A DNA stretch of 32,000 bases. Source: Candidatus Saccharimonadota bacterium. GTDB taxonomy: Bacteria; Patescibacteriota; Microgenomatia; UBA1406; GWC2-37-13. Below the pieces are notes generated by a model. It was not told the origin of the DNA. It saw nothing but the letters and a program-made list of their open reading frames with translations, and searched no databases. Made by a program: the position numbers and the translations under genes. Positions 855 through 32,000 of this stretch are shown here, one piece after another (position 1 is the first letter of the stretch; each line of letters starts with the position of its first letter). The DNA lies in assembly GCA_016432445.1 (NCBI GenBank), contig CP066689.1, positions 630,001-662,000 of the forward strand, given 5' to 3'.

Positions 855-1221
855 CCCTTCGTCCACGAGCTTACGCTCGGGATTTTGGAGTGGCACAGAC
901 ACAACAAAGTGGGGCTAAAATAGTCGGCAAACTATAGTCAGCAGACAACAGAATTAATTTCCGTTGACTGTTGACTGTAGACTATCGACTATATATGTAC
1001 TTTGACAATCAGGAGTAAGGTAACAATTGAAAGGTATAAAATAATACATCTTTTTTTGAATAACTAGAGAGATGGGAGAGTAATGCCAATGGTGGATGCC
1101 TTGGCAGTTTGAACCGAAGAAGGACGCGTGTTTAAGCGCGATATCAACGGTGAGTCCTTAAACAGACATTACAAGCCGTTGGTTTCCGAATGGGATAACC
1201 CCATTCCGAGCAATCGGAATG

Positions 1222-1245
1222 ATCAGGTACCGTCTGGTACCTGAT
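1222..1245 (+). repeat. GGTACC-GTCT-GGTACC hairpin copy 1 (inside 23S)
   Basis: ATCAGGTACC GTCT GGTACCTGAT, a perfect 10-bp stem. Confidence 0.8.
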
Positions 1246-1298
1246 GGGAACCCGGGGAACTGAAACATCTAAGTACCCGGAGGAATATAAATCATATG

Positions 1299-1344
1299 AT
1301 CCTTCGATTTCACTCAGGATCATCCTGAGCGAGGTCGAACGGAT
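1299..1344 (+). other. ~45-nt helical insertion in 23S domain I relative to E. coli
   Basis: It lies between the conserved AAATCA and GAGATTCC-CAGTAGCGGCGAGCGAA strings. ATCCTTCGA pairs with TCGAACGGAT, enclosing CTCAGGA-TCA-TCCTGAG. Confidence 0.6.
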
Positions 1345-1387
1345 GAGATTCCGTCAGTAGCGGCGAGCGAACGCGGAACAGTCTAAA

Positions 1388-1493
1388 TCCCTCTTCGCTT
1401 TTTACTGCGTAAAAAGCTACGATGGGACAGGCCCATTTAATATGAGACTGTGTCCCTACCGGAGATTACTACGAAGTAGTAAGCGGAGGGGGA
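1388..1493 (+). repeat. structured ~105-nt 23S insertion element, copy A
   Basis: Basal stem is TCCCTCTTCGC...GCGGAGGGGGA. Internal hairpins are TTTTTAC-TGC-GTAAAAA, GGGACA...TGTCCC and TTACTAC-GAA-GTAGTAA. It shares end sequences and architecture with 2360-2470. Confidence 0.65.
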
Positions 1494-1678
1494 GGTTGCG
1501 GGAGCTGCAATGTGTCCTTGATTTTTATAGGAGAATGTTCTGGAAAGAACAGTCATAGAAGGTGACAACCCTGTATTCGAAATAAAAATCGGGACTAGCG
1601 GATTTCCCAAGTACCACGAGGCACGGCAAACCTTGTGGGAAGCTGGGTCGGTCACGATCCAAGACTAAACATTCAAAC

Positions 1679-1719
<41 letters not shown>

Positions 1720-1777
1720 TCCCCCAGTGCGGGGAGTGAAATAGAACCTGAATCCATTGGCTAACAAACAGACAAAG

Positions 1778-1799
1778 CCAGGTACCGTCTGGTACCTGG
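1778..1799 (+). repeat. GGTACC-GTCT-GGTACC hairpin copy 2 (inside 23S, helix-25 region)
   Basis: CCAGGTACC GTCT GGTACCTGG, a perfect 9-bp stem. Confidence 0.8.
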
Positions 1800-2359
1800 T
1801 ACTGTCGTGCCTATTGAAGAATGAGTCAGCGAGTCCCCGCTTTGTGTTTGCTTAATCCATTATTTTGGAGGAGGCATAGGGAAACCAAGTGCGAAAAGCG
1901 CGTTTATACATAGCGGGGGACCCGAAACTGGGTGAGCTAACCATGAGCAGGATGAACCCCGATGAAAGTCGGGGGAAGGTCCGAACCCGTTGCAGGTGAA
2001 ATTGCATGGGACGACTTGTGGTTAGGGGTAATATGCCTATCGAACCCAGAGATAGCTGGTTCTCCCCGAAATATATTTAGGTATAGCCTCTATGATTAAA
2101 ATCCTGGGGTAGAGCTACTGGATGGTCTTGGTGCGCGTAAGCGTATCAAAATCAACCAAACTCCGAATACAGGATGTACACATAGGGAGTCAGATCTGCC
2201 CGGATAATCGGGTGTGGTCGAAAGGGAAACAACCCGGACTCTCGTCTAAGGTTCCTAAATGATTATTAAGTGGCAAAGGCCGTTTCATTTCCAATACAGC
2301 AGGGAGGTTGGCTCAGAAGCAGCCATCCTTTAAAGAGTGCGTAACAGCTCACCTGAATA

Positions 2360-2470
2360 TCCCCCTTCGCTCCTTGCTTCGCAACGGAGCTACGGTAGGG
2401 ACAAGTTCCCTTAACTTGTAAGGGATGCTTGCTCCTCCGAAGCTCTTTACGGAGTAAAGAGCGGAGGGGA
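2360..2470 (+). repeat. structured ~110-nt 23S insertion element, copy B (helix-45 region)
   Basis: It is inserted between AGCTCACCTGAATA and GATGGAGCGCCGAAAATG, where E. coli has AGCTCACTGGTCGAGTCGGCCTGCGCGGAAGATG. Basal stem is CCCCCTTCGC...GCGGAGGGG. A shared GCTACGGTAGGGACA block is present, plus a terminal hairpin GCTCTTTAC-GGA-GTAAAGAGC. Confidence 0.65.
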
Positions 2471-2713
2471 GGAGATGGAGCGCCGAAAATGATTCGGATC
2501 TAAATAATCTACCGAAGACAGAGATACTTGCCCTCTGGGCAAGTGTGGTAGGGGAGCGTTCTTACTGCAATGAAGCTCAACTGTAAGGTTGGGTGAAGTG
2601 GTAGGAAGTGAGAATGCTGACATAAGTAGTGACTCTTCCGATGAAAACTCGGAATGCCGAAAGTTCAAGGTTTCCTCAGCAACGTCAATCGACTGAGGGT
2701 TAGTCGGATCTAA

Positions 2714-2735
2714 GGGAGTACCGTCTGGTACCCCC
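2714..2735 (+). repeat. GGTACC-GTCT-GGTACC hairpin copy 3 (inside 23S)
   Basis: GGGAGTACC GTCT GGTACCCCC, with one A-C mismatch in the stem. Confidence 0.75.
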
Positions 2736-3739
2736 GATGTACAAGCAGTTAATATTCTGCTACCTAGTATTACGCGTTATTACTTTACTGATGACGAAGT
2801 TTGAATAAAGAGGCCTTCTATATGAGGGTTTAAGTTGTAAGTCTTTACCGCAAGGTTTAGGAAAGCAACGAATACGATCTGCAGTAATGCGGAGAGCTTT
2901 TGATTTTAAGTTTCCGGGAAAAATCAGTAAAGGAGTGTGATATTAGTCCGTACCGCAAACCGACACAGGTGATCTGGTCGAGAAGACCAAGGCAGACGGG
3001 TAATGGTAGTTTAAGGAACTCGGCAAAAAAGCTGAGCGTAAGCTTTGCAACATGCTCTGACCCGCTTAGCGGGTTTTCAACAAAAGTTTGTCAACCGACT
3101 GTTTAGCAAAAACTCAGGCTCCTGCAAACCTGTAAAAGGGATATATAGGAGCTGAAACCTGTCCGGTACTGGTAAGTTAATCGTTGAGGCTGAAGTATTT
3201 AAGCAATTAGATACCAGGTTTTGGCGCAAGCTCCAGTGAACGACAGCTCTAACCCTGAGAGTTCTAAGGTAGCGTAGCCCCTTGCCGGGTAAGTTCCGGC
3301 CCGCATGAAAGGTTTAACGAGTTGACAACTGTCTTGAACTACTGCCCGACGAACTTGAAATGGCTGTGAAGATGCGGCCTACCTGCACATGGACAAGAAG
3401 ACCCCGGGAGCTTTACTGAAACTTGATATTGGCGAGGAGGAATTAACTGTTGAGAGTAGGAGGGAGTAGGCCATTGGCCTACAACGATGAAACACCTCTC
3501 TTTGATTTTTTCTCACCTTACCCCGCCTTGGCGAGGGACAGTGTTAGGTGGTCAGTTTAACTGGGGCGGTTTCCTCCAAAAAGGTAACGGAGGAGCGCAA
3601 AGGTCAGCTTATTCCGGATAGAAATCGGAATGTAAGTGTAAACGCAAAAGCTGGCTTAACTGTGAGGATGACTATCCGAGCAGATGCGAAAGCAGGCGTT
3701 AGTGATCCCCCATCCCGACGTGATTTTCGGGAGGGGCTT

Positions 3740-3772
<33 letters not shown>

Positions 3773-3808
3773 GGTCTCGCCCGAGAGTTCACATCGACGG
3801 CGAGGTTC

Positions 3809-3839
<31 letters not shown>

Positions 3840-3853
3840 AGCTGAAGTAGGTT

Positions 3854-4708
<855 letters not shown>

Positions 4709-6458: not shown

Positions 6459-8087
6459 ATGAAATCAGTAATTCTTATCGTTCTTGATGGATTTGGCATT
6501 GGTCCTGCAAGCCCTGGCAATGCTATTTTCTTAGCCACCCCCACCAACCTCAACACCTATCTTTATCGTTATCCAAATACTACACTGAAAGCTTCAGGAG
6601 AAGAAGTAGGACTTCCACATGGAGAGGTTGGGAATACAGAAGTCGGTCATATTAATCTTGGTGCTGGAAGAATAATTTATCAAGACTTACCTCGAATCAA
6701 CATGAGTATTGCCGACGGAACTTTTTCAAAAAATAAAGTTTTTTTAAAAGTTATTGAACATCTCGCTCAAACTAAAGGTAAACTCCATTTGCTTGGATTA
6801 ATTGGCAACGGATCAGTACATTCAAGTATTGACCACCTTTATGCCTTACTCAATCTTGCCAAAGAGTCCCGCCTTAAAGATGTTTATATCCACGCTATAA
6901 CTGATGGAAGAGATTCTCCTCCAAAGTCTGCCCAGGAAATACTCATACAGTTTGAAGAAAAAGTGAAACAGCTTGGAATAGGAAGAGTTAGCAGTGTAAT
7001 GGGCCGCTACTTTGCAATGGATCGTGATCGCCGTTGGGAAAGAACGGAGAAAGCTTATTTATGTTTAGCAAAAGGAGTTGGACAAAAGGCTAGCTCAGTT
7101 CGAGAAGCTCTTGAATTTTCTTACAGGCAGGAGAAAACTGATGAGTTTATTGAACCTACTCTTATACTAGATGCCTCTCAGAACCCAGTGCTTATTGATC
7201 AAGGCGATGCCGTAATATTTTTTAATTTCAGAATTGATAGACCGCGTCAACTAACCAAGGCTTTTGTTTTAGATGATTTTGAGAATAAAGCTAATGTCTC
7301 AACTTCATTTGATCCTTACGAAGTTAAATATTCTAAATCACATTTAGCTAAACCTGACGAAAATGTGGCTAGCCCATTTAATCGTGGAAATAAGATTGCT
7401 AATTTGTTATTTGTAACAATGACTGAGTATGAGAAAAATTTACCTGTCGAGATTGCTTTTCCTCAAATTATTGTGTCCATGCCTTTAGGCAGAGTCATCT
7501 CAAACTATAATCTTGCGCAACTGAGGATGAGCGAATCAGAGAAAGAAAGGTTTGTAACATATTATTTCAATGGACAAAGAGATCTATCTTTTCCGCTCGA
7601 AGACCATCAAATTATTCCTTCTCCAAAAGTAGCTACATATGACCTGAGACCGGAAATGTCGGCTATTGAGCTAACTGAAGCGCTTATGACCAACATAAAA
7701 AAAAACCAATATAAATTTATTCTCGTTAATTTTGCTAACCCTGATATGGTTGGACATACTGGAAGTATTGAGGCAACTGTAAAAGCCATAAAAACTGTCG
7801 ATGAGTGTGTTGGAAAAATTGTTAATCTTGCACTGGAATTAAATATGACTGTTTTTATAACCGGCGATCATGGAAACGCAGAACAAAAAATTAATCCTAA
7901 GACTGGCGATATCTCAACAGAACATACAGATAATCCTGTACCTTTTTTCGCTATAAGTAATGATCTTGAAAAGAAATATAGACGTCTGCAAAGCGGGATT
8001 TTAGCTGATGTTGCACCAACAATCTTAACTGAGATGGATATCCCTAAGCCGGAGGAAATGACAGGCAGGAATTTGCTGGAAGGCTAA
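6459..8087 (+). CDS. gpmI: 2,3-bisphosphoglycerate-independent phosphoglycerate mutase
   Basis: ILIVLDGFGI, GNTEVGHINLGAGRIIYQDL, ITDGRDSPP, NFANPDMVGHTG and ITGDHGNAE. Confidence 0.92.
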   Translation: MKSVILIVLDGFGIGPASPGNAIFLATPTNLNTYLYRYPNTTLKASGEEVGLPHGEVGNTEVGHINLGAGRIIYQDLPRINMSIADGTFSKNKVFLKVIEHLAQTKGKLHLLGLIGNGSVHSSIDHLYALLNLAKESRLKDVYIHAITDGRDSPPKSAQEILIQFEEKVKQLGIGRVSSVMGRYFAMDRDRRWERTEKAYLCLAKGVGQKASSVREALEFSYRQEKTDEFIEPTLILDASQNPVLIDQGDAVIFFNFRIDRPRQLTKAFVLDDFENKANVSTSFDPYEVKYSKSHLAKPDENVASPFNRGNKIANLLFVTMTEYEKNLPVEIAFPQIIVSMPLGRVISNYNLAQLRMSESEKERFVTYYFNGQRDLSFPLEDHQIIPSPKVATYDLRPEMSAIELTEALMTNIKKNQYKFILVNFANPDMVGHTGSIEATVKAIKTVDECVGKIVNLALELNMTVFITGDHGNAEQKINPKTGDISTEHTDNPVPFFAISNDLEKKYRRLQSGILADVAPTILTEMDIPKPEEMTGRNLLEG

Positions 8088-9043: not shown

Positions 9044-9730
9044 ATGATAACAATCATTTGCGGGGAAGATACGGTAGCTTCCAGAAATTATTTTCAAGAG
9101 CTTAAAAATAAGTATAGTCAAAAAGGATTTGAAATTAAAGATATTGCTTCAAAAGATATTCCCGAGGCGATTAAATCTGATCAGACAGTCAGTCTTTTTA
9201 GCTCAAAAATTATTTTTTTTATAGCAAATCTTAACTCATTTTTATCCAAATCCGCTAATAAAGAGCTTTTAGAAACTTTTGAGGATTTAGCAAAATCTAA
9301 AGACGTAGAAATTGTCGATTGGGAAGAAGATAAAGGATTGCGCGATATTAAGATAGCTAGGCTTGGAAAACTAAAAGAATTTAAGCCACAAAAAAATATT
9401 TTTCAGCTTCTGGACGCTTTATGTCCTGGCAATAAAACAAAATTTATAGAATTGCTTAATACCGTTTCAGAAAAAAGCGAAGACTTGTTTATATTTACAA
9501 TGCTAGCGCGTCATACAAGATCGCTAATACTTGCGCACATTGGAGAATTCACCAGCAAAATTCAATTATGGCAAAAGGGAAAGCTTGTTAGCCAGACAAG
9601 ACGCTGGCAGATTGAAAAACTTCTGGCTTTTTATGAAGGGTTATTCCGAATAGATCTATCAACAAAAACAAGCTCTAACGTCTATGGAATTAAACATTCA
9701 ATTGAAATATTAGCTTGTTACTATTTATAA
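9044..9730 (+). CDS. holA: DNA polymerase III delta subunit-like protein (short)
   Basis: The N-terminal IICGEDTVASRNYFQELK resembles the HolA (L)YGEE..L start. The protein is helical, and 228 aa is short for HolA. The assignment is tentative. Confidence 0.45.
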   Translation: MITIICGEDTVASRNYFQELKNKYSQKGFEIKDIASKDIPEAIKSDQTVSLFSSKIIFFIANLNSFLSKSANKELLETFEDLAKSKDVEIVDWEEDKGLRDIKIARLGKLKEFKPQKNIFQLLDALCPGNKTKFIELLNTVSEKSEDLFIFTMLARHTRSLILAHIGEFTSKIQLWQKGKLVSQTRRWQIEKLLAFYEGLFRIDLSTKTSSNVYGIKHSIEILACYYL

Positions 9731-16041: not shown

Positions 16042-17457
16042 TCATTTCTTCTTTATTGAAAGATCCCTAAGAGAAAACTCATTGCAGAGAGTTCTTATAG
16101 CATTGTCTACCTGATACTCCTCAATTCCAAAGGTCATACTAATTCCACCGAAAGGATAATTTAAGGCAGCTTTTTTAATTCCCGCACGTGCAAGAGCAGC
16201 CGTAGCTCTAGCTTCAACCTCCATAGAGTTATCTTTTATCCCCTCTCCAACGACACAAACTGCTCCAAGATTACCTGTAACATCCAATCTATCAGGATCG
16301 ATTTCGCTTTGAATCTCATTCAAAGTTTCATCTAATGTTCCGTTGTATTTTCCACTTAACATAATCGATAGGGAATCTTTTTGAGTAGGATCGTATTCGT
16401 AACTTATTTTGTGTTTCCTAAATATTTCTAAAATTCTAGCACCAACTCCATATTCGTCGTTTATCCCAAATTTTCGAATGTCAACTGCCAAATAACCTTT
16501 TTTTCCGGCAATACCCAACACTCTTTCTGTCGGATCAACCACCCTAGTCTTAGTTACCATCGTACCATGATAATTAGGATCAAGAGGATTGATGCCCTTC
16601 CCCGCAAAACTGCTTTTAACATCAAGAGGTATTCCTTGTCTATATATAGGACCAACCGTATCCTTGTTAACTACCTCGGCCCCACCAATACCAATCTCCC
16701 GCGCTTCATCGTAAGTTATATTTGAAATAAATTTTGCATCTTCAACTAATATGGGGTCAGTCGCTCGCATCCCATTTAATTTTTTCCATATTTCGATCAA
16801 TCTTGCATCAATTCCTCTACCAACTATAGATAAAGACACATCTGAACCACCTCTCTCAAACGTAACAACGTTTCCATCTTCATCTTCTGCATAATAACCA
16901 GGAATAACATTTTTAACATTTGATGTAAGAGCAGACCTGATAATTTCGTAGGAAACCGGACTTATTTCACCATTATTTTTCGTTTTGATCAAATCAACGG
17001 CATCATAAAATTTTCCGCCTATAAAATAGGCGAAAATTTGAGCGCTAACCCACTCTCCGCGAGACATAGTCCATTGTCTTGACCGTCCTCCCTCTATTCC
17101 TTCAAGAACAACGTTAAGCAAATCTGGAACTAAAGGACAACCTAAATCCAGCCCTATTTGAGTAAATCGTCTATCAATCTGGTCAAACACCTTTCGATGA
17201 ACTTTATTTCTCCTTTCAAATTCACTAGCTTTGGTAAAAATATCAAAAGTATCTCTAAGTAGATTAGTAATTTTGTCTGAATTCCCATCTTTTCCAGGAG
17301 CCGAAAGAATTACAGATTGACGATATAATTGCTCTCCTGTCGTTATGCTTATTGGATCGACAAACATTATGTCTGCTGCCATCCTAAATCCTCCTGCATT
17401 AGCAACAGAATCTCCGCCAAATTTTGATGCAATCAGACCTCTCTCATGATTTCCCAT
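16042..17457 (-). CDS. aspartate kinase family protein (amino acid kinase fold plus C-terminal ACT-like region)
   Basis: KFGGDSVA at the N-terminus, ERGGSDVSLSIV resembling the RGGSD motif, and a C-terminal region of ACT-like length. 471 aa. Confidence 0.65.
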   Translation of the reverse strand: MGNHERGLIASKFGGDSVANAGGFRMAADIMFVDPISITTGEQLYRQSVILSAPGKDGNSDKITNLLRDTFDIFTKASEFERRNKVHRKVFDQIDRRFTQIGLDLGCPLVPDLLNVVLEGIEGGRSRQWTMSRGEWVSAQIFAYFIGGKFYDAVDLIKTKNNGEISPVSYEIIRSALTSNVKNVIPGYYAEDEDGNVVTFERGGSDVSLSIVGRGIDARLIEIWKKLNGMRATDPILVEDAKFISNITYDEAREIGIGGAEVVNKDTVGPIYRQGIPLDVKSSFAGKGINPLDPNYHGTMVTKTRVVDPTERVLGIAGKKGYLAVDIRKFGINDEYGVGARILEIFRKHKISYEYDPTQKDSLSIMLSGKYNGTLDETLNEIQSEIDPDRLDVTGNLGAVCVVGEGIKDNSMEVEARATAALARAGIKKAALNYPFGGISMTFGIEEYQVDNAIRTLCNEFSLRDLSIKKK

Positions 17458-17529: not shown

Positions 17530-17598
17530 TTACCAAGATAAGACCCTCTTAGAGAGTCTTTCTTTGGTTTTTTTTGCCTTTAAATTCCCAGATAACAT
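17530..17598 (-). CDS. candidate Lys-rich leader peptide MLSGNLKAKKTKERLSKRVLSW
   Basis: ATG at 17598 and TAA at 17532-17530, translated by hand. It sits between a consensus-like promoter and the terminator, and it overlaps alternative pairing segments. Confidence 0.5.
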   Translation of the reverse strand: MLSGNLKAKKTKERLSKRVLSW

Positions 17599-28727: not shown

Positions 28728-28801
28728 GGACGATTAGCTCAGTTGGCTAGAGCGTCACATTGACATTGTGAAGGTCACAGGTTCAAGTCCTGTATCGTCC
28801 A
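28728..28801 (+). tRNA. tRNA-Val (anticodon GAC)
   Basis: GGACGAT TA GCTC AGTTGGCTA GAGC G TCACA TTGACAT TGTGA AGGTC ACAGG TTCAAGT CCTGT ATCGTCC A. Confidence 0.93.
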
Positions 28802-28864
28802 CAAAATTCGTTGGTTAGTTTTGAGGGAAGATGCGGAGGACGAACTCCTTAAGCCTTTTCAATC

Positions 28865-29807: not shown

Positions 29808-31298
29808 ATGCTTCGTTTTTTTTACATTCTCTATCTACTGATAAAGTATTTTTTCTTTCTTAGCCTAGGAAAATATAAACTTAAAAAAATTAATAAACCG
29901 AAACTGTTGAGGAGTTTTTTTGAAGAAGCCAGCGGCTCTTTTATTAAGTTTGGACAATTACTCTCGATGAGAGTTGAAATGATTTCTAATGATTATTCTT
30001 TTGAATTATTAAATCTCCTCGACAATCTTAAACCTTTTTCTTACAAACTAGTAGAAAAAATATTTATTGAAGAATTAGGCGCAACTCCCAATAAAATCTT
30101 CAAGACATTTGAGAGTGAACCTTTTGCATCTGCTTCTTTTGGACAAGTGCATGGAGCTAAACTTAAAGATGGCACTGTTGTAGTTGTCAAAGTGTTAAGA
30201 CCTGGAGTTGAATCAAAAGCGAAAATTGATTTTTTGGTTGTTGATTTTCTTGCTTTTATCGCAGATCTCTTTTTCAAGATAGAAGCTTTACCTTGGAAAG
30301 AGTTTGCTAAAGAGTTTAAACAATGGACAAAGCAAGAGTTTGATTATCGGATTGAAGCTTCAAATGGTGAAAGACTTTACAATAATAATGTTAAAAATTC
30401 AAGCATTGTTATACCCAAGATCTATCATCATCTGACGACAAAAAAAATATTAGTTGAAGAATATATGGAAGGACTTCATTTAAGCCGAGTTCTTAAAAGG
30501 TTAAGAGATGGAAGGCTAGACGAAAAAAAACTAAAAAAATTAGGAATTGATTTAAAAAAAGTCCCAAGGATTCTTGTTTCTGAACTTCTTAAACAGTTTT
30601 TTATCGACGGTTTTTTTCATGCTGACCCTCACCCTGGAAATATAATTCTTCTTCAAAACGGTAAAATCGGACTTATTGATTTTGGTATCGTAGGCGGTAA
30701 AGATCCAATGCCCAATATTGATCATTTTATGAAATGGGCTAAAGCCACAGGAGATATGAACTTTGAGGATGCTGCTTTTCATGCTGCAAATTATGCTGGA
30801 GAAGACATAAAAGTAATGATAAGAAGCGCTCTGCCTGCAACTGTTGATCAAAAAGATATTGATGAGTTTACGCATTTACTGGCAGATAATTATGTACAAA
30901 CAGCTAAACATATAATCACTGACAATCTGGAAAATTTAAAGACTTTAAAAAGAGATTACATGACAGTATTTTTACAAGTTATTAAAGCAGGTAATAAATA
31001 TAATGGCAAAGTGCCAAAAGAATTTGTAATTCTAAGCAGAGGTCTCGCTGTTCTTGGTCTTATGGCAAAACTCATGGATAGCGATTTTCGCATTACAGAA
31101 GAACTGAAAAGCTTTTTTCAAACTTACCCGGAAGTAGAACTATTAAAAAATTATGTACCGCCTGCAATTAAAAGAATAAATCGGGAGGTAGCAATAGAGC
31201 GATTAACAAACTGGTTATCATCTCTCTTTGAGGTCGATCCTCAGCTTTATCATCTTGTACAAAAATATTTAAGAAAGTACAATATAGTTGAAACTTAA
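29808..31298 (+). CDS. ABC1/UbiB-family atypical protein kinase
   Basis: FIKFGQLLSMR, ASASFGQVHGAKL, VVKVLRPG, FFHADPHPGNIIL and LIDFGIVG. Confidence 0.88.
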   Translation: MLRFFYILYLLIKYFFFLSLGKYKLKKINKPKLLRSFFEEASGSFIKFGQLLSMRVEMISNDYSFELLNLLDNLKPFSYKLVEKIFIEELGATPNKIFKTFESEPFASASFGQVHGAKLKDGTVVVVKVLRPGVESKAKIDFLVVDFLAFIADLFFKIEALPWKEFAKEFKQWTKQEFDYRIEASNGERLYNNNVKNSSIVIPKIYHHLTTKKILVEEYMEGLHLSRVLKRLRDGRLDEKKLKKLGIDLKKVPRILVSELLKQFFIDGFFHADPHPGNIILLQNGKIGLIDFGIVGGKDPMPNIDHFMKWAKATGDMNFEDAAFHAANYAGEDIKVMIRSALPATVDQKDIDEFTHLLADNYVQTAKHIITDNLENLKTLKRDYMTVFLQVIKAGNKYNGKVPKEFVILSRGLAVLGLMAKLMDSDFRITEELKSFFQTYPEVELLKNYVPPAIKRINREVAIERLTNWLSSLFEVDPQLYHLVQKYLRKYNIVET

Positions 31299-31301
31299 AC
31301 T

Positions 31302-31490
31302 ATGTTAGATAAATTTTTGAATTTTTATACAAAGTATCCGTGGGTTGCAATTATTATACTAGCTCAGTGGTTTGCGACAACCTATATCATCATCAACACA
31401 AATGCTAGTGACAAAACCACCATAATGGGAATAACATTTTTATCAACGGTGCTCTATGCCTATTTTGGCTTCAAAGCTCCCAAAGGATAA
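31302..31490 (+). CDS. small membrane protein (62 aa, 2 TM), paralog of 29637..29789
   Basis: It starts 4 nt after the kinase stop and has a hydrophobic profile and a YPWV motif. Confidence 0.5.
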   Translation: MLDKFLNFYTKYPWVAIIILAQWFATTYIIINTNASDKTTIMGITFLSTVLYAYFGFKAPKG

Positions 31491-31506
31491 ATTGCTGTTA
31501 ATTAAG

Positions 31507-31535
31507 TTGAAAAAAACTATGTTTAATGTTATAAT
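31507..31535 (+). promoter_or_regulatory. sigma70-like promoter (TTGAAA-17 nt-TATAAT) for the thrS leader
   Basis: TTGAAA at 31507-31512 and TATAAT at 31530-31535. Confidence 0.6.
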
Positions 31536-31545
31536 GTATCTGGAA

Positions 31546-31593
31546 ATGAGAAAAATATCAAGTTACGAAACCACTACAACTACTTTCTCCTAA
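31546..31593 (+). CDS. candidate Thr-rich leader peptide MRKISSYETTTTTFS
   Basis: ATG at 31546, five consecutive Thr codons ACC ACT ACA ACT ACT at 31570-31584, and TAA at 31591. It lies between the promoter and the terminator upstream of thrS. Confidence 0.6.
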   Translation: MRKISSYETTTTTFS

Positions 31594-31624
31594 AAGGAGG
31601 GTTAGTGATGTGGTATACATTAAT

Positions 31625-31646
31625 CCTCCGAATAGGAGGTTTTTTT
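31625..31646 (+). terminator. intrinsic terminator / attenuator CCTCC-GAATA-GGAGG plus T7, 40 nt before the thrS ATG
   Basis: A 5-bp GC-rich stem at 31625-31639 and TTTTTTT at 31640-31646. Confidence 0.65.
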
Positions 31647-31685
31647 ATACCTTAAAATTAATTAATAGTTATATATAATAAAAAA

Positions 31686-32000
31686 ATGGAACAAAAGGAA
31701 GAATTAAAAAAAATGAGACATTCTTGCGAGCACGTCTTGCATCAAGCCATGGTGGAACTTTTCCCTGGCTTAAAAAGAGCCATGGGGCCAGCGACAGATG
31801 AGGGATTTTATCTTGATTTCGATTATGACGGAAGAATTTCCGAAGAAGATTTTCCTAAAATTGAAAAAAGGATGCAAGAACTTATAAAAGCCAATTTACC
31901 TATTGTCCGCCAAGAGATCTCTATTGAAAAAGCCAGAGAAATGTTTAAAAATAATCCGTATAAACTGGACTGGGTTGACCAAATTGAAAAAAAAGGTGAA
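31686..32000 (+). CDS. thrS: threonine--tRNA ligase, N-terminal part (starts at the editing/second additional domain; continues past the window)
   Basis: MRHSCEHVLHQAM...GPATDEGFYLDFDY matches the HxxxH...GFYYDF ThrRS/AlaRS SAD signature. The frame is open to position 32000. Confidence 0.85.
   Translation, partial: MEQKEELKKMRHSCEHVLHQAMVELFPGLKRAMGPATDEGFYLDFDYDGRISEEDFPKIEKRMQELIKANLPIVRQEISIEKAREMFKNNPYKLDWVDQIEKKGE

What the first reader, a model, noticed from the sequence alone, without database searches (positions are those of the whole stretch)
31507..31685. Thr5 leader peptide with a 1:2 / 2:3 / 3:4 attenuator upstream of thrS
About 10 nt after a TTGAAA-17-TATAAT promoter, an ATG opens a 15-codon ORF, MRKISSYETTTTTFS. 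It has five consecutive Thr codons (31570-31584), reminiscent of E. coli thrL. Mutually exclusive pairings follow. Segment 1, TCTCC (31586-31590), lies in the last codons of the peptide and pairs with segment 2, GGAGG (31596-31600). Segment 2 extended, GGAGGGTTA (31596-31604), pairs with segment 3, TAATCCTCC (31621-31629), giving 9 bp with one G-U as an antiterminator. Segment 3, CCTCC, pairs with segment 4, GGAGG (31635-31639), followed by T7 as the terminator. A ribosome stalled on the Thr codons would cover segment 1 and free 2 to sequester 3, allowing read-through. A ribosome reaching the stop codon would cover 2 and let 3:4 terminate. That logic fits a threonyl-tRNA synthetase gene. The known thrS controls are translational operator mimicry (E. 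coli) and T-box (Firmicutes), so leader-peptide attenuation of thrS, here in a CPR-like genome, would be unusual. The peptide start is nearly leaderless and has no Shine-Dalgarno, like most genes in this window.
Basis: partly seen in the sequence, partly recalled or inferred. Interest (0 to 1): 0.75.

Follow-up and report, generated by a model that had tools for sequence, protein, structure and literature searches.

The report
Threonine leader-peptide attenuator before thrS
A 15-codon upstream gene with five threonine codons, followed by switchable RNA hairpins and a terminator, most likely raises transcription of the threonyl-tRNA synthetase gene in this uncultured CPR bacterium when charged threonine tRNA runs short; the mechanism is classical, but it has not been described for this gene in this lineage, and it recurs in many relatives.

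Summary

**What is there.** Window 31507-31646 carries, in order:
- an extended -10 promoter;
- a near-leaderless 15-codon ORF, MRKISSYETTTTTFS;
- four mutually complementary segments;
- a CCUCC/GGAGG hairpin followed by U7, 47 nt before thrS (thrS-infC-rpmI-rplT-pheST).

**Chance.** No dinucleotide shuffle of the intergenic region out of 20,000 gives a five-codon ACN run.

Eleven distinct relatives (ThrRS 43-79% identical) have a short ORF upstream of thrS with an in-frame run of 3-8 Thr codons, an alternative antiterminator and a terminator. A twelfth, L096, keeps only two Thr codons. The sequences are otherwise unrelated. Folding with a ribosome "parked" on the Thr codons gives the antiterminator. 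Parking it on the stop codon gives the terminator.

**Refinements.**
- Segment 1 includes the Thr codons themselves (ACCAC pairs with GUGGU).
- A second conserved TATAAT sits 7 nt before the thrS ATG, so thrS probably also has its own leaderless promoter.

**Context.** Other CPR relatives carry a T-box-like leader at the same place, and never both types.

**Precedents.** Leaderless leader peptides before synthetase genes are reported in Streptomyces and Deinococcus, so this is a new member of a known kind.

The parts
31507..31535 (+). Promoter P1: -35 TTGAAA (31507-12), 17-nt spacer, TG (31527-28), -10 TATAAT (31530-35)
   Evidence: 11 of 12 consensus positions, with an extended -10. Promoter-like sites lie at the equivalent place in L164, L170, L171, L010, L137 and others, although the sequences differ. 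No transcription start has been mapped.
31546..31593 (+). Leader ORF MRKISSYETTTTTFS* (15 codons plus TAA). Its ATG lies 10 nt after the -10 box, so the 5' UTR is about 2-4 nt (near-leaderless), and there is no SD.
   Evidence: Relatives have ORFs of 11-20 codons that start 4-14 nt after a -10-like hexamer.
31570..31584 (+). Five consecutive Thr codons (ACC ACT ACA ACT ACT): the regulatory codons.
   Evidence: 0 of 20,000 shuffles reproduce the run. Runs of 4 or more ACN codons occur in 8 of 122 thrS upstream regions on the sense strand and in 0 on the antisense strand.
31570..31591 (+). Segment 1: ACCAC (31570-74), ACUA (31579-82), UUCUCCU (31585-91). It overlaps the Thr codons, the last two sense codons and the first base of the stop codon.
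   Evidence: fold of the RNA made before segment 3 is transcribed. The same kind of hairpin forms in all 8 members of the subfamily.
31595..31614 (+). Segment 2: AGGAGGG (31595-601), UAGU (31603-06), GUGGU (31610-14). It pairs either with segment 1, or, as GGAGGGUUAGUG (31596-607), with segment 3.
31618..31629 (+). Segment 3: CAUUAAUCCUCC. It is the 3' strand of the antiterminator (2:3, 12 bp). Its last five bases are the 5' arm of the terminator.
   Evidence: z = -4.8, 0 of 500 shuffles.
31625..31646 (+). Intrinsic terminator: CCUCC GAAUA GGAGG (3:4, -7.7 kcal/mol) followed by U7 (31640-46).
31652..31679 (+). Promoter-like site P2: TTAAAA, 16-nt spacer, TATAAT (31674-79), ending 7 nt before the thrS ATG. 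This is a possible promoter for a leaderless thrS mRNA, and it lies downstream of the terminator.
   Evidence: 10 of 12. TATAAT is conserved 6-9 nt before the thrS ATG in L164, L170, L171, L096 and L010. Many other genes in the window show the same arrangement.
31687..32000 (+). 5' part of thrS (threonyl-tRNA synthetase; it runs off the window end). This is the regulated gene and the first gene of thrS-infC-rpmI-rplT-pheS-pheT.
   Evidence: Pfam domains on source contig L001; homologues.

Best explanation
This is a ribosome-mediated (leader-peptide) transcription attenuator that senses charged tRNA-Thr and controls read-through from promoter P1 into thrS, and probably into the whole thrS-infC-rpmI-rplT-pheST operon.

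Proposed mechanism:
1. RNA polymerase starts a few nucleotides upstream of the ATG at 31546. A ribosome loads on this (near-)leaderless 5' end and translates MRKISSYETTTTTFS.
2. If Thr-tRNA is plentiful, the ribosome runs to the stop codon (31591-93). Its footprint then covers segment 1 and the first bases of segment 2. Segment 3 stays free, pairs with segment 4 (CCUCC/GGAGG), and the U7 tract terminates transcription at about 31646.
3. If nobody translates, segment 1 (including the Thr codons) pairs with segment 2, and 3:4 again terminates.
4. If Thr-tRNA is scarce, the ribosome stalls on the Thr codons, mainly codons 3-5. It holds segment 1 but leaves segment 2 free. The 12-bp 2:3 helix forms before segment 4 is made, and the polymerase reads through.

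A second conserved -10 box, 7 nt before the thrS ATG, probably supplies a basal leaderless thrS mRNA. The attenuator would then add an inducible component on top of that.

What is shown: the sequence elements, their excess over chance, their recurrence in relatives, and the thermodynamic switch in silico. What is inferred: the transcription start, translation of the leader, coupling between ribosome and polymerase, termination efficiency, and translation of thrS from the read-through transcript.
For: **Anatomy.** All elements are present and in the right order.

**Specificity of the Thr run.**
- 0 of 20,000 shuffles give a 5-codon ACN run.
- Across 122 distinct thrS upstream regions, ACN runs of 4 or more codons occur in 8 on the sense strand and 0 on the antisense strand. 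All other families except AAN, TTN (A/T-only), TAN, GAN and GGN occur in 0-1; those five reach 3-23.

**Recurrence with unrelated sequence.** Leader ORFs upstream of thrS:
- L164 (ThrRS 79% identical): MKIFRAVLTTTTTYL*
- L170: MMKLNVFTLTTTTSS*
- L171: MKINFIINCTTTISS*
- L010: MNIDMIQNILTTTTYLL*
- L013: MNLVTTTTTVAL*
- L137: MNLLTTTTTAN*
- L117: MYRVITTTTTTTTPLTR*
- L045: VNRKSFATTTTVSL*
- L033: MNLSVLITTTATIPISWR*
- L122: MKNSLCQTTTVTTSGWSGF*

Each is followed by a hairpin plus U-tract before thrS. The genes further upstream differ between loci (often a tRNA gene), so the element travels with thrS.

**In-silico switch.** With the ribosome footprint masked at the Thr codons, segment 3 is paired before segment 4 exists, and the terminator has 0 pairs in the full-length MFE. 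This holds for most or all Thr positions in WIN, L164, L171, L010, L096, L137, L013, L117, L045 and L122, and for the first two of four in L170. With the mask at the stop codon, the terminator forms in all of them.

**Antiterminator stability.** The 2:3 helix is far more stable than shuffles: z = -4.2 to -6.2, and 0 of 500 shuffles reach it, in WIN, L164, L171 and L096.

**Compensatory changes.** The distal 2:3 helix differs in sequence between loci but stays complementary: UUAGUG/CAUUAA in WIN, GGUAGU/ACUGUC in L171, UUGUUGUUU/AGACAAUAA in L096 (read).

**Segment 1 includes the Thr codons.** The 1:2 hairpin that pairs the Thr codons with a conserved GUGG forms in all 8 subfamily members.

**Leader starts.** Leader ORFs start 4-14 nt after a -10-like hexamer in nearly all loci. 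This fits a genome that lacks SD motifs and has TATAAT 5-9 nt before many ATGs.

**Biological logic.** Relatives without a Thr leader often carry a T-box-like leader, a sensor of tRNA charging, at the same position. The two types never co-occur: 0 of 20 against 23 of 110, Fisher p = 0.014.
Against: - There are no experimental or transcriptomic data. The transcription start, the termination and the translation of the leader are all inferred.
- A conserved TATAAT lies 7 nt before the thrS ATG, downstream of the terminator. thrS may be expressed largely from its own leaderless promoter. In an organism without SD motifs it is unclear how well the internal thrS AUG of a read-through transcript is translated.
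- The P1 -10 box is 10 nt from the ATG, so the leader mRNA may carry a 2-4 nt 5' UTR. That can reduce leaderless initiation.
- In the window and in L096, the ribosome-free full-length MFE is 2:3 nested inside 1:4 (-26.7 kcal/mol), not 1:2 plus 3:4 (about -25). The 'no translation' outcome therefore relies on folding order, or on the 1:4 helix acting as the terminator stem.
- The terminator stem is short: 5 bp, -7.7 kcal/mol.
- In L170 and L013, MFE predictions with the mask on the last Thr codons already give the terminator.
- The element is patchy. The close relative L166 (71%) has no leader at all, and L165 (73%) has a T-box-like leader.
- L096, a clear homologue of the leader, keeps only two Thr codons (I-T-A-T-I).
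Confidence: 0.8

Rival explanations
1. Insulator plus independent promoter. thrS is expressed only from the conserved leaderless promoter P2 (TATAAT 31674-79). The upstream P1-sORF-terminator unit is a separate short transcript that ends at the U7 tract and does not feed thrS. Read-through transcripts, if any, are not translated into ThrRS, because the internal AUG has no SD.
For: P2-like TATAAT is conserved 6-9 nt before the thrS ATG in WIN, L164, L170, L171, L096 and L010. Many genes of the window show the same -10-to-ATG spacing and no SD. That pattern suggests leaderless mRNAs are the usual mode of expression.
Against: This does not explain why the short transcript should encode a Thr-codon run specifically upstream of thrS in many unrelated sequences. 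It also does not explain why an antiterminator that competes with the terminator is conserved and responds to ribosome position. Genes inside operons in this window are translated without an SD or a 5' end, for example the starts at 6459, 9741 and 11190, and infC overlapping thrS. In L013 only 20 nt separate the start of the U-tract from the thrS ATG, which leaves no room for a full promoter.
Confidence: 0.1
2. Translation-independent riboregulator. The Thr-codon run is read directly by the anticodon of uncharged tRNA-Thr (T-box-like), or the hairpin loop (UGUGGU, which contains the Thr anticodon triplets UGU and GGU) is bound by ThrRS as in the E. coli thrS operator. Either binding would stabilise one of the alternative structures without any ribosome.
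For: Related genomes use T-box-like leaders at the same position. The apical loop of the 2:3 helix carries a conserved (U)GUGG, which superficially resembles the T-box GUGGAACC core.
Against: No T-box match even at E <= 10 in the window, and none at E <= 1 in L164, L170 or L171. TGGNACC is absent from all 20 leader-type loci. The base after UGG varies (U, C, U, C, C, U, A), whereas T-box-type relatives always have UGGA, so pairing with a fixed tRNA acceptor end is unlikely. The conserved GUGG is explained more simply as the pairing partner of CCAC in the first Thr codons. Runs of 3-8 in-frame codons, an in-frame ATG placed just after a -10 box and an in-frame stop placed at segments 1/2 are features of a translated ORF, not of a specifier loop. 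No hairpin lies next to the thrS start where an E. coli-type operator would act.
Confidence: 0.05
3. Chance. An AT-rich intergenic region happens to contain a short ORF, a Thr run and a terminator that belongs to the upstream 62-codon ORF (31302-31490).
For: Promoter-like and terminator-like sites are common in AT-rich DNA: 11 promoter-like sites found against 4.2 expected in 1.2 kb. The Rfam Phe_leader match is insignificant (20 bits, E = 0.9).
Against: 0 of 20,000 shuffles reproduce the Thr run. The same architecture recurs in at least 11 independent relatives with different upstream neighbours. The antiterminator has z = -4.8.
Confidence: 0.02

Closest known systems
Classical leader-peptide attenuators of enterobacterial amino-acid operons (trpL, thrL of thrABC, hisL, pheL; Rfam Thr_leader, Phe_leader etc.)
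   Same: A short ORF with a run of cognate regulatory codons lying in segment 1. Four segments with 1:2, 2:3 and 3:4 alternatives. An intrinsic terminator before the structural gene. The decision is set by the position of the ribosome.
   Different: There is no sequence homology: no Rfam leader family reaches significance, and the best is Phe_leader at 20 bits against a gathering score of 55. The leader ORF has no SD and starts 10 nt after the -10 box. The regulated gene is a tRNA synthetase, not a biosynthetic operon. E. coli thrL senses Thr and Ile, whereas this leader has Thr codons only. A second promoter-like box sits between the terminator and the gene.
pheM-pheST attenuator of E. coli, and the trpS/leuS attenuators predicted in Streptomyces (PMC1262725), and His leaders of hisS paralogues in bacilli (PMC2965389)
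   Same: Leader-peptide attenuation applied to an aminoacyl-tRNA synthetase gene, with codons for the cognate amino acid. The window's gene order thrS-infC-rpmI-rplT-pheST matches the E. coli cluster.
   Different: In this contig pheS follows rplT with a 20-nt gap and no Phe leader. The attenuator sits before thrS instead. The lineage is different (CPR).
Leaderless 'thrL' upstream of thrS in Streptomyces lividans TK24 (MKRVRPFLETTPGFVPAR; PMC8079986), and the 14 leaderless leader peptides of Deinococcus deserti upstream of tRNA synthetase and biosynthesis genes (PMC4007540)
   Same: A leaderless short ORF with Thr codons directly upstream of thrS, proposed to attenuate transcription. The leader peptide is translated from a 5'-terminal AUG.
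   Different: The Streptomyces peptide has only two Thr, and the authors found a hairpin but no U-rich tract, so termination was 'not clear'. The CPR element has 3-8 consecutive Thr codons, a canonical terminator, a demonstrable antiterminator, and comparative support from many genomes. No sequence relationship was seen.
T-box leaders of thrS (Firmicutes)
   Same: Same regulated gene, same signal (tRNA-Thr charging) and same output (antitermination at an intrinsic terminator). T-box-like leaders occupy the same position in other CPR relatives.
   Different: There is no Stem I, specifier loop or T-box core in the window. The sensing is done by a translating ribosome rather than by direct tRNA binding.
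E. coli thrS translational operator (tRNA-Thr anticodon-arm mimic bound by ThrRS)
   Same: Feedback control of thrS.
   Different: The E. coli operator acts on translation initiation, next to the SD and AUG of thrS. Here there is no SD and no structured element adjacent to the thrS AUG, and the element ends in a transcription terminator.

Membership tests
Ribosome-mediated (leader-peptide) transcription attenuators (functional class) | A short ORF in the 5' leader with a plausible way to start translation | tested here: met
   15-codon ORF at 31546-31593, 10 nt after an extended -10 box. There is no SD, but the genome uses none (1 of 27 genes), and leader ORFs of relatives start 4-14 nt after -10-like hexamers. 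Translation itself has not been shown.
Ribosome-mediated (leader-peptide) transcription attenuators (functional class) | A cluster of codons for the amino acid related to the regulated gene | tested here: met
   Five consecutive Thr codons upstream of thrS. 0 of 20,000 shuffles reproduce them. Enriched in relatives on the sense strand only.
Ribosome-mediated (leader-peptide) transcription attenuators (functional class) | An intrinsic terminator between the leader ORF and the structural gene | tested here: met
   CCUCCGAAUAGGAGG plus U7 at 31625-46. Equivalent terminators are present in 11 relatives. Termination activity has not been measured.
Ribosome-mediated (leader-peptide) transcription attenuators (functional class) | An antiterminator that is mutually exclusive with the terminator, and an upstream segment that competes with the antiterminator | tested here: met
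   2:3 helix of 12 bp, -15.4 kcal/mol, z = -4.8. 1:2 hairpin of 16 bp. Caveat: 1:4 can coexist with 2:3.
Ribosome-mediated (leader-peptide) transcription attenuators (functional class) | Geometry: a ribosome stalled on the regulatory codons favours the antiterminator, and a ribosome at the stop codon favours the terminator | tested here: met
   Footprint-mask folding. In the window, with the A site on Thr1-5, segment 3 is fully paired before segment 4 is made, and 0 of 5 terminator pairs form. With the A site on the stop codon, 5 of 5 terminator pairs form. Only Thr4 and Thr5 also prevent the 1:4 helix. Ten relatives give the same result.
Ribosome-mediated (leader-peptide) transcription attenuators (functional class) | Read-through responds to the level of charged cognate tRNA | not testable with these tools
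   This needs in vivo or coupled in vitro assays, or metatranscriptomes.
Rfam Thr_leader / other curated leader-peptide RNA families (homology) | A covariance-model match at or near the family's gathering score | tested here: not met
   There is no Thr_leader match at E <= 10. The best leader family is Phe_leader at 20.3 bits against a gathering score of 55, E = 0.9, driven by the CCUCC/GGAGG terminator. The element is not a homologue of the enterobacterial families.
T-box leader (RF00230) | Covariance-model match; T-box core UGGNACC in an antiterminator bulge; a specifier loop | tested here: not met
   There is no T-box match at E <= 10 in window 31300-32000. TGGNACC is absent. By contrast, relatives L121 (38.8 bits, E = 3e-5), L168 (31.5 bits, E = 1e-3) and L109 (E = 0.19) give sub-threshold T-box matches.
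E. coli-type thrS translational operator | Anticodon-arm-like hairpin(s) next to the SD and AUG of thrS that ThrRS can bind | tested here: not met
   The 40 nt between the U-tract and the thrS ATG are A/T-rich, unstructured and contain a -10 box. There is no SD. ThrRS binding is not testable here.

The most novel reading that the evidence does not exclude
CPR/Patescibacteria carry a previously undescribed and widespread class of leaderless Thr leader-peptide attenuators on thrS. These have repeatedly exchanged places with T-box-like leaders, even among genomes whose ThrRS proteins are 73-79% identical to the window's. If so, a 70S ribosome loading on the 5'-terminal AUG of a nascent, SD-less transcript is coupled tightly enough to RNA polymerase to decide termination within about 100 nt in these minimal organisms. 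The design would be a two-promoter one: attenuated P1 plus basal leaderless P2. The same genome may use the scheme at other genes, for example the Lys/Thr-rich sORF and terminator before the aspartokinase-like gene at 17636-17458 on the minus strand.
Probability: 0.5. Interest if true: 0.6.

Novelty: new member of a known kind. Interest (0 to 1): 0.5.

Why it matters
- It would be the first indication I could find of ribosome-mediated attenuation in the Candidate Phyla Radiation. That would imply functional coupling of transcription and translation there. Almost nothing is known about gene regulation in this group, and many of its members lack SD-type initiation.
- It adds a clean, comparatively supported case of a third control mechanism for thrS, beside the E. 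coli operator and the Firmicute T-box.
- It shows the sensor being swapped (leader peptide, T-box-like, or none) between close relatives at one locus. That is a useful natural experiment on how attenuators evolve.
- These 11-20-codon ORFs are not called by gene finders and could be annotated systematically.
- The mechanism itself is textbook, so the surprise for a specialist is moderate.

Tried and rejected
- **Rfam on the region at E <= 10 and on the whole window at gathering.** There was no meaningful family. The weak Phe_leader and RsaF hits are driven by the terminator.
- **A second ORF with a perfect SD.** AAGGAGG, 7 nt, then ATG at 31608, giving MWYTLILRIGGFFIP*, which reads through the terminator. 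I rejected it because the nearest relatives L164 and L171 have stops after 2 codons, and the genome does not use SD motifs.
- **The conserved loop motif UGGN as a T-box-like site for the tRNA acceptor end.** I rejected this because N varies, while T-box-type relatives always have UGGA. The motif is explained instead by pairing with CCAC of the Thr codons.
- **L133** (KTTT plus terminator) looked like a member at first. It has no antiterminator and carries TGGAACC, so I reclassified it as T-box-like.
- **The MAFFT alignment of eight leaders (A1)** is not in structural register, so I did not use the count of structure pairs or RNAalifold on it. Compensatory changes were read per sequence instead.
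- **My first automatic terminator parser** failed on 4-7 loci. I redid those with explicit terminator coordinates.
- **Literature I could not read.** Lopatovskaya et al. 2010 (Mol Biol 44:128), a survey of attenuation of amino-acid and aaRS operons, is not held, so I cannot exclude that it lists thrS attenuators in other phyla. The supplement listing the 14 D. deserti leader peptides is not held either.
- **Variant loci.** L005/L167, L009 and L016 have TTTP* followed by an ACCCC-loop-GGGGU hairpin. L113, L140, L159 and L018 are similar. All have Thr runs but no canonical terminator, and I could not assign them a mechanism.
Full report
**1. What is in the sequence**

Window 31507-31646 contains, in this order:
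- TTGAAA (31507-12), a 17-nt spacer and TG-n-TATAAT (31527-35);
- ten bases later an ATG (31546) opening MRKISSYETTTTTFS*, with five consecutive Thr codons (ACC ACT ACA ACT ACT, 31570-84) and a TAA at 31591-93;
- the terminator CCTCCGAATAGGAGG (31625-39) followed by T7 (31640-46).

The ATG at 31687 opens a threonyl-tRNA synthetase gene. On the source contig, recovered by exact protein look-up, it is 595 aa with tRNA_SAD, tRNA-synt_2b and HGTP_anticodon domains. It is followed by infC (overlapping it), rpmI, rplT, pheS and pheT.

The organism is a CPR/Patescibacteria member. The best ThrRS matches (56-79% identity) come from Parcubacteria, WWE3, Daviesbacteria, Levyibacteriota and Woesebacteria MAGs. 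The window is 36% G+C. Only 1 of 27 genes checked has an SD-like motif within 20 nt of its start. Many have a TATAAT-like hexamer 5-9 nt before the ATG, which is the signature of leaderless mRNAs.

**2. Is it more than chance?**

- No dinucleotide-preserving shuffle of the 196-nt intergenic region (0 of 20,000) contains a 5-codon ACN run, and 0.03% contain a 4-codon run.
- On both strands of the 32-kb window there is only one other ACN run of 4 or more codons.
- The 111-nt leader folds better than shuffles (z = -2.7).
- The antiterminator alone is -15.4 kcal/mol against -5.3 +/- 2.1 for shuffles, and 0 of 500 shuffles reach it.

**3. The comparative test**

I collected 160 thrS loci from GTDB species representatives and JGI metagenomes. 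I added nine more by looking up the closest ThrRS proteins.

Among 122 distinct upstream regions, ACN runs of 4 or more codons occur in 8 on the sense strand and in none on the antisense strand. The other codon families occur in 0-1, apart from AAN, TTN, TAN, GAN and GGN, which reach 3-23.

The Thr runs sit in short ORFs that end 2-12 codons after the run:

| Locus | Leader peptide |
|---|---|
| L164 (ThrRS 79% identical, the closest relative found) | MKIFRAVLTTTTTYL* |
| L170 | MMKLNVFTLTTTTSS* |
| L171 | MKINFIINCTTTISS* |
| L010 | MNIDMIQNILTTTTYLL* |
| L013 | MNLVTTTTTVAL* |
| L137 | MNLLTTTTTAN* |
| L117 | MYRVITTTTTTTTPLTR* |
| L045 | VNRKSFATTTTVSL* |
| L033 | MNLSVLITTTATIPISWR* |
| L122 | MKNSLCQTTTVTTSGWSGF* |

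Each is followed by a hairpin plus U-tract before thrS. Apart from the Thr run the peptides are unrelated. The stems are built from different sequences (CCUCC/GGAGG, CCCCC/GGGGG, CCAGCC/GGCUGG, CCGCUGC/GCAGCGG, GCCCUUCC/GGAGGGGC). The upstream neighbours differ, and in several loci the neighbour is a tRNA gene. The element therefore belongs to thrS, and what is conserved is the architecture. That is the hallmark of leader-peptide attenuators.

L096 is clearly homologous to the window's leader (…ATATTCTCCTAACGGGAGG…) but keeps only I-T-A-T-I.

**4. Structure and switch**

Folding the RNA that exists before segment 3 is transcribed gives one long hairpin in all eight members of the GGAGG subfamily. 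In it the Thr codons themselves pair with a G/U-rich stretch of segment 2. In the window the pairs are:
- ACCAC 31570-74 with GUGGU 31610-14;
- ACUA 31579-82 with UAGU 31603-06;
- UUCUCCU 31585-91 with AGGAGGG 31595-601.

This explains a conserved (U)GUGG in the later 2:3 loop, which I had first suspected of being a T-box relic.

I then masked the ribosome footprint (from the 5' end to 12 nt past the first base of the A-site codon) and refolded.
- With the A site on a Thr codon, segment 3 is fully paired with segment 2 before segment 4 exists, and the terminator has no pairs in the full-length MFE.
- With the A site on the stop codon, segment 2 is covered and the terminator forms.
- The stop-codon result holds in all eleven sequences: the window, L164, L170, L171, L010, L096, L137, L013, L117, L045 and L122. 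The Thr-codon result holds for most or all Thr positions in ten of them, and for the first two of four in L170.
- Without a ribosome, L164, L170, L171, L010, L137, L013, L117, L033 and L045 give 1:2 plus the terminator.
- In the window and L096 the ribosome-free MFE is instead 2:3 nested inside a 1:4 helix that abuts the U-tract (-26.7 against about -25 kcal/mol for 1:2 plus 3:4). That structure would probably still terminate. It means that in the window only stalls on Thr4-5, and partly Thr3, which cover UUCUCCU, fully free segment 4.

The distal part of 2:3 shows changes on both strands between loci: UUAGUG/CAUUAA in the window, GGUAGU/ACUGUC in L171, UUGUUGUUU/AGACAAUAA in L096. I read these. 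I did not compute a formal covariation statistic, because the MAFFT alignment is not in structural register.

**5. Leaderless leader and a second promoter**

In nearly all loci the leader ORF starts 4-14 nt after a -10-like hexamer. Examples are TATAAT plus 6 nt in L010 and L137, TATACT plus 7 nt in L171, TACACT plus 4 nt in L170, and TTGACA-17-TTAACT plus 7 nt before a GTG in L167. So the leader peptide is most likely translated from a (near-)leaderless mRNA, as proposed for leader peptides in Deinococcus deserti and Streptomyces lividans (PMC4007540, PMC8079986).

Unexpectedly, thrS itself also has a perfectly conserved TATAAT 6-9 nt before its ATG, downstream of the terminator. This holds in the window (31674-79), L164, L170, L171, L096 and L010.

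The simplest reading is a two-promoter design. P2 makes a basal leaderless thrS mRNA. P1 plus the attenuator adds transcription when tRNA-Thr charging drops. This is the main open point. Nothing here shows that thrS is translated from the read-through transcript, although operon-internal genes without SD are clearly expressed in this genome.

**6. Relatives with a different sensor**

Several close relatives have no Thr ORF. Instead they have a leader with CTCACCAAC…, GUGGAACC and a terminator. These are L165 (73%), L168, L169, L007, L085, L092, L097, L104, L109, L121, L124 and L146.

Rfam's T-box model matches three of them below its gathering score of 93 bits: L121 at 38.8 bits (E = 3e-5), L168 at 31.5 bits (E = 1e-3) and L109 (E = 0.19).

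The T-box core TGGNACC occurs in 23 of 130 upstream regions on the sense strand against 3 on the antisense strand. It occurs in none of the 20 leader-type or variant loci (Fisher p = 0.014).

L166 (71%) has only a promoter.

So thrS in CPR is preceded by a Thr leader ORF, a T-box-like leader, or nothing, and the state changes between genomes whose ThrRS proteins are 71-79% identical to the window's. Such sensor exchanges are known between Firmicutes and Proteobacteria (PMC2965389).

**7. Comparison with what is known**

The element works like the classical trp/thr/his/phe attenuators. It is not homologous to them.

Leader-peptide attenuation of synthetase genes is known or predicted for:
- pheST in E. 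coli;
- trpS and leuS in Streptomyces (PMC1262725);
- hisS paralogues in bacilli (PMC2965389);
- several synthetase genes in D. deserti (PMC4007540);
- alaS, trpS, leuS and thrS in S. lividans, where the thrS leader has two Thr codons and no clear terminator (PMC8079986).

Six full-text searches found nothing on leader peptides or attenuation in CPR. One potentially relevant survey, Lopatovskaya et al. 2010, could not be read.

I therefore rate this as a new member of a known kind: a clean, well-supported thrS example in a lineage where the mechanism had not been reported.

**8. Verdict**

I give 0.8 probability that this is a Thr-sensing leader-peptide attenuator feeding thrS. The residual doubt concerns how much P1 read-through contributes relative to P2, and the lack of any expression data.

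Noticed in passing
window 31652-31686; also L164, L170, L171, L096, L010 just upstream of thrS: A perfectly conserved TATAAT lies 6-9 nt before the thrS ATG, downstream of the attenuator's terminator. thrS probably has its own leaderless promoter (P2) in addition to the attenuated P1.
   Followed up: partly
whole window (27 gene starts): The genome essentially lacks Shine-Dalgarno motifs (1 of 27 genes). Many genes have a TATAAT-like hexamer 5-9 nt before the ATG, for example the starts at 9044, 18628(-), 20230, 24175 and 24843(-). This suggests widespread leaderless mRNAs in this CPR organism.
   Followed up: partly
L165:300-491, L168:466-600, L121:2213-2426, L109:955-1083, and L007, L085, L092, L097, L104, L124, L146, L169 upstream of thrS: Other CPR relatives carry a short T-box-like leader (CTCACCAAC…, GUGGAACC, terminator) before thrS. 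These score far below Rfam's T-box gathering threshold (24-39 bits against 93). They may be a reduced CPR T-box variant that current models miss. They never co-occur with the Thr leader ORF.
   Followed up: partly
L005:2845-2900 (= L084), L167:~370-450, L009:~2840-2900, L016:~2690-2760; also L113, L140, L159, L018: This is a variant class. A leaderless ORF ends in a Thr run (often …TTTP*), and its last codons and stop codon lie inside a hairpin (ACCCC-loop-GGGGU or GCCCG…CGGGC). There is no canonical U-tract terminator before thrS. The mechanism is unexplained; it might act through Rho or at the level of translation.
   Followed up: no
window 17636-17458, minus strand: Upstream of an aspartokinase-like gene (AA_kinase + ACT, 16042-17457 on the minus strand) lies a similar layout: TTGACA-17-TAATAT, an sORF MLSGNLKAKKTKERLSKRVLSW* (ATG at 17598, with a KAKKTK cluster), a hairpin GACUCUCU/AGAGGGUC, and the terminator AGCCCUCAUAAGAGGGCU plus U6 (17502-17485) 27 nt before the ATG. 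GAGGGU can also pair with GCCCUC. This may be a second, Lys/Thr-sensing leader-peptide attenuator. In mask folding only codons 10-11 (AAA, ACC) disrupt the terminator, and Lys codons are common in AT-rich DNA.
   Followed up: partly
window 31608-31655: A second small ORF (MWYTLILRIGGFFIP*) is preceded by a perfect SD (AAGGAGG, 7 nt, ATG) and reads through the terminator. It is not conserved in the nearest relatives (stops after 2 codons in L164 and L171), so it is probably a by-product of the GGAGG stems.
   Followed up: yes
window 28728-28802 versus L010, L096, L109, L113, L137 (3' end seen in L140): In several relatives a tRNA gene lies directly upstream of the thrS leader; it reads as tRNA-Val(GAC) where the anticodon loop was visible. 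In the window the tRNA-Val(GAC) gene is about 2.7 kb upstream. It is separated from the leader by an ABC1/UbiB-type kinase gene (29808-31298) and two small hydrophobic ORFs, which looks like an insertion into a conserved tRNA-Val/thrS neighbourhood.
   Followed up: no
window 4083-4592: A LAGLIDADG homing-endonuclease ORF (Pfam E = 7e-15) lies 119 nt downstream of the 3' end of the 23S rRNA gene (1068-3964). The 23S gene is preceded by tRNA-Ala. No 16S gene is in the window.
   Followed up: no
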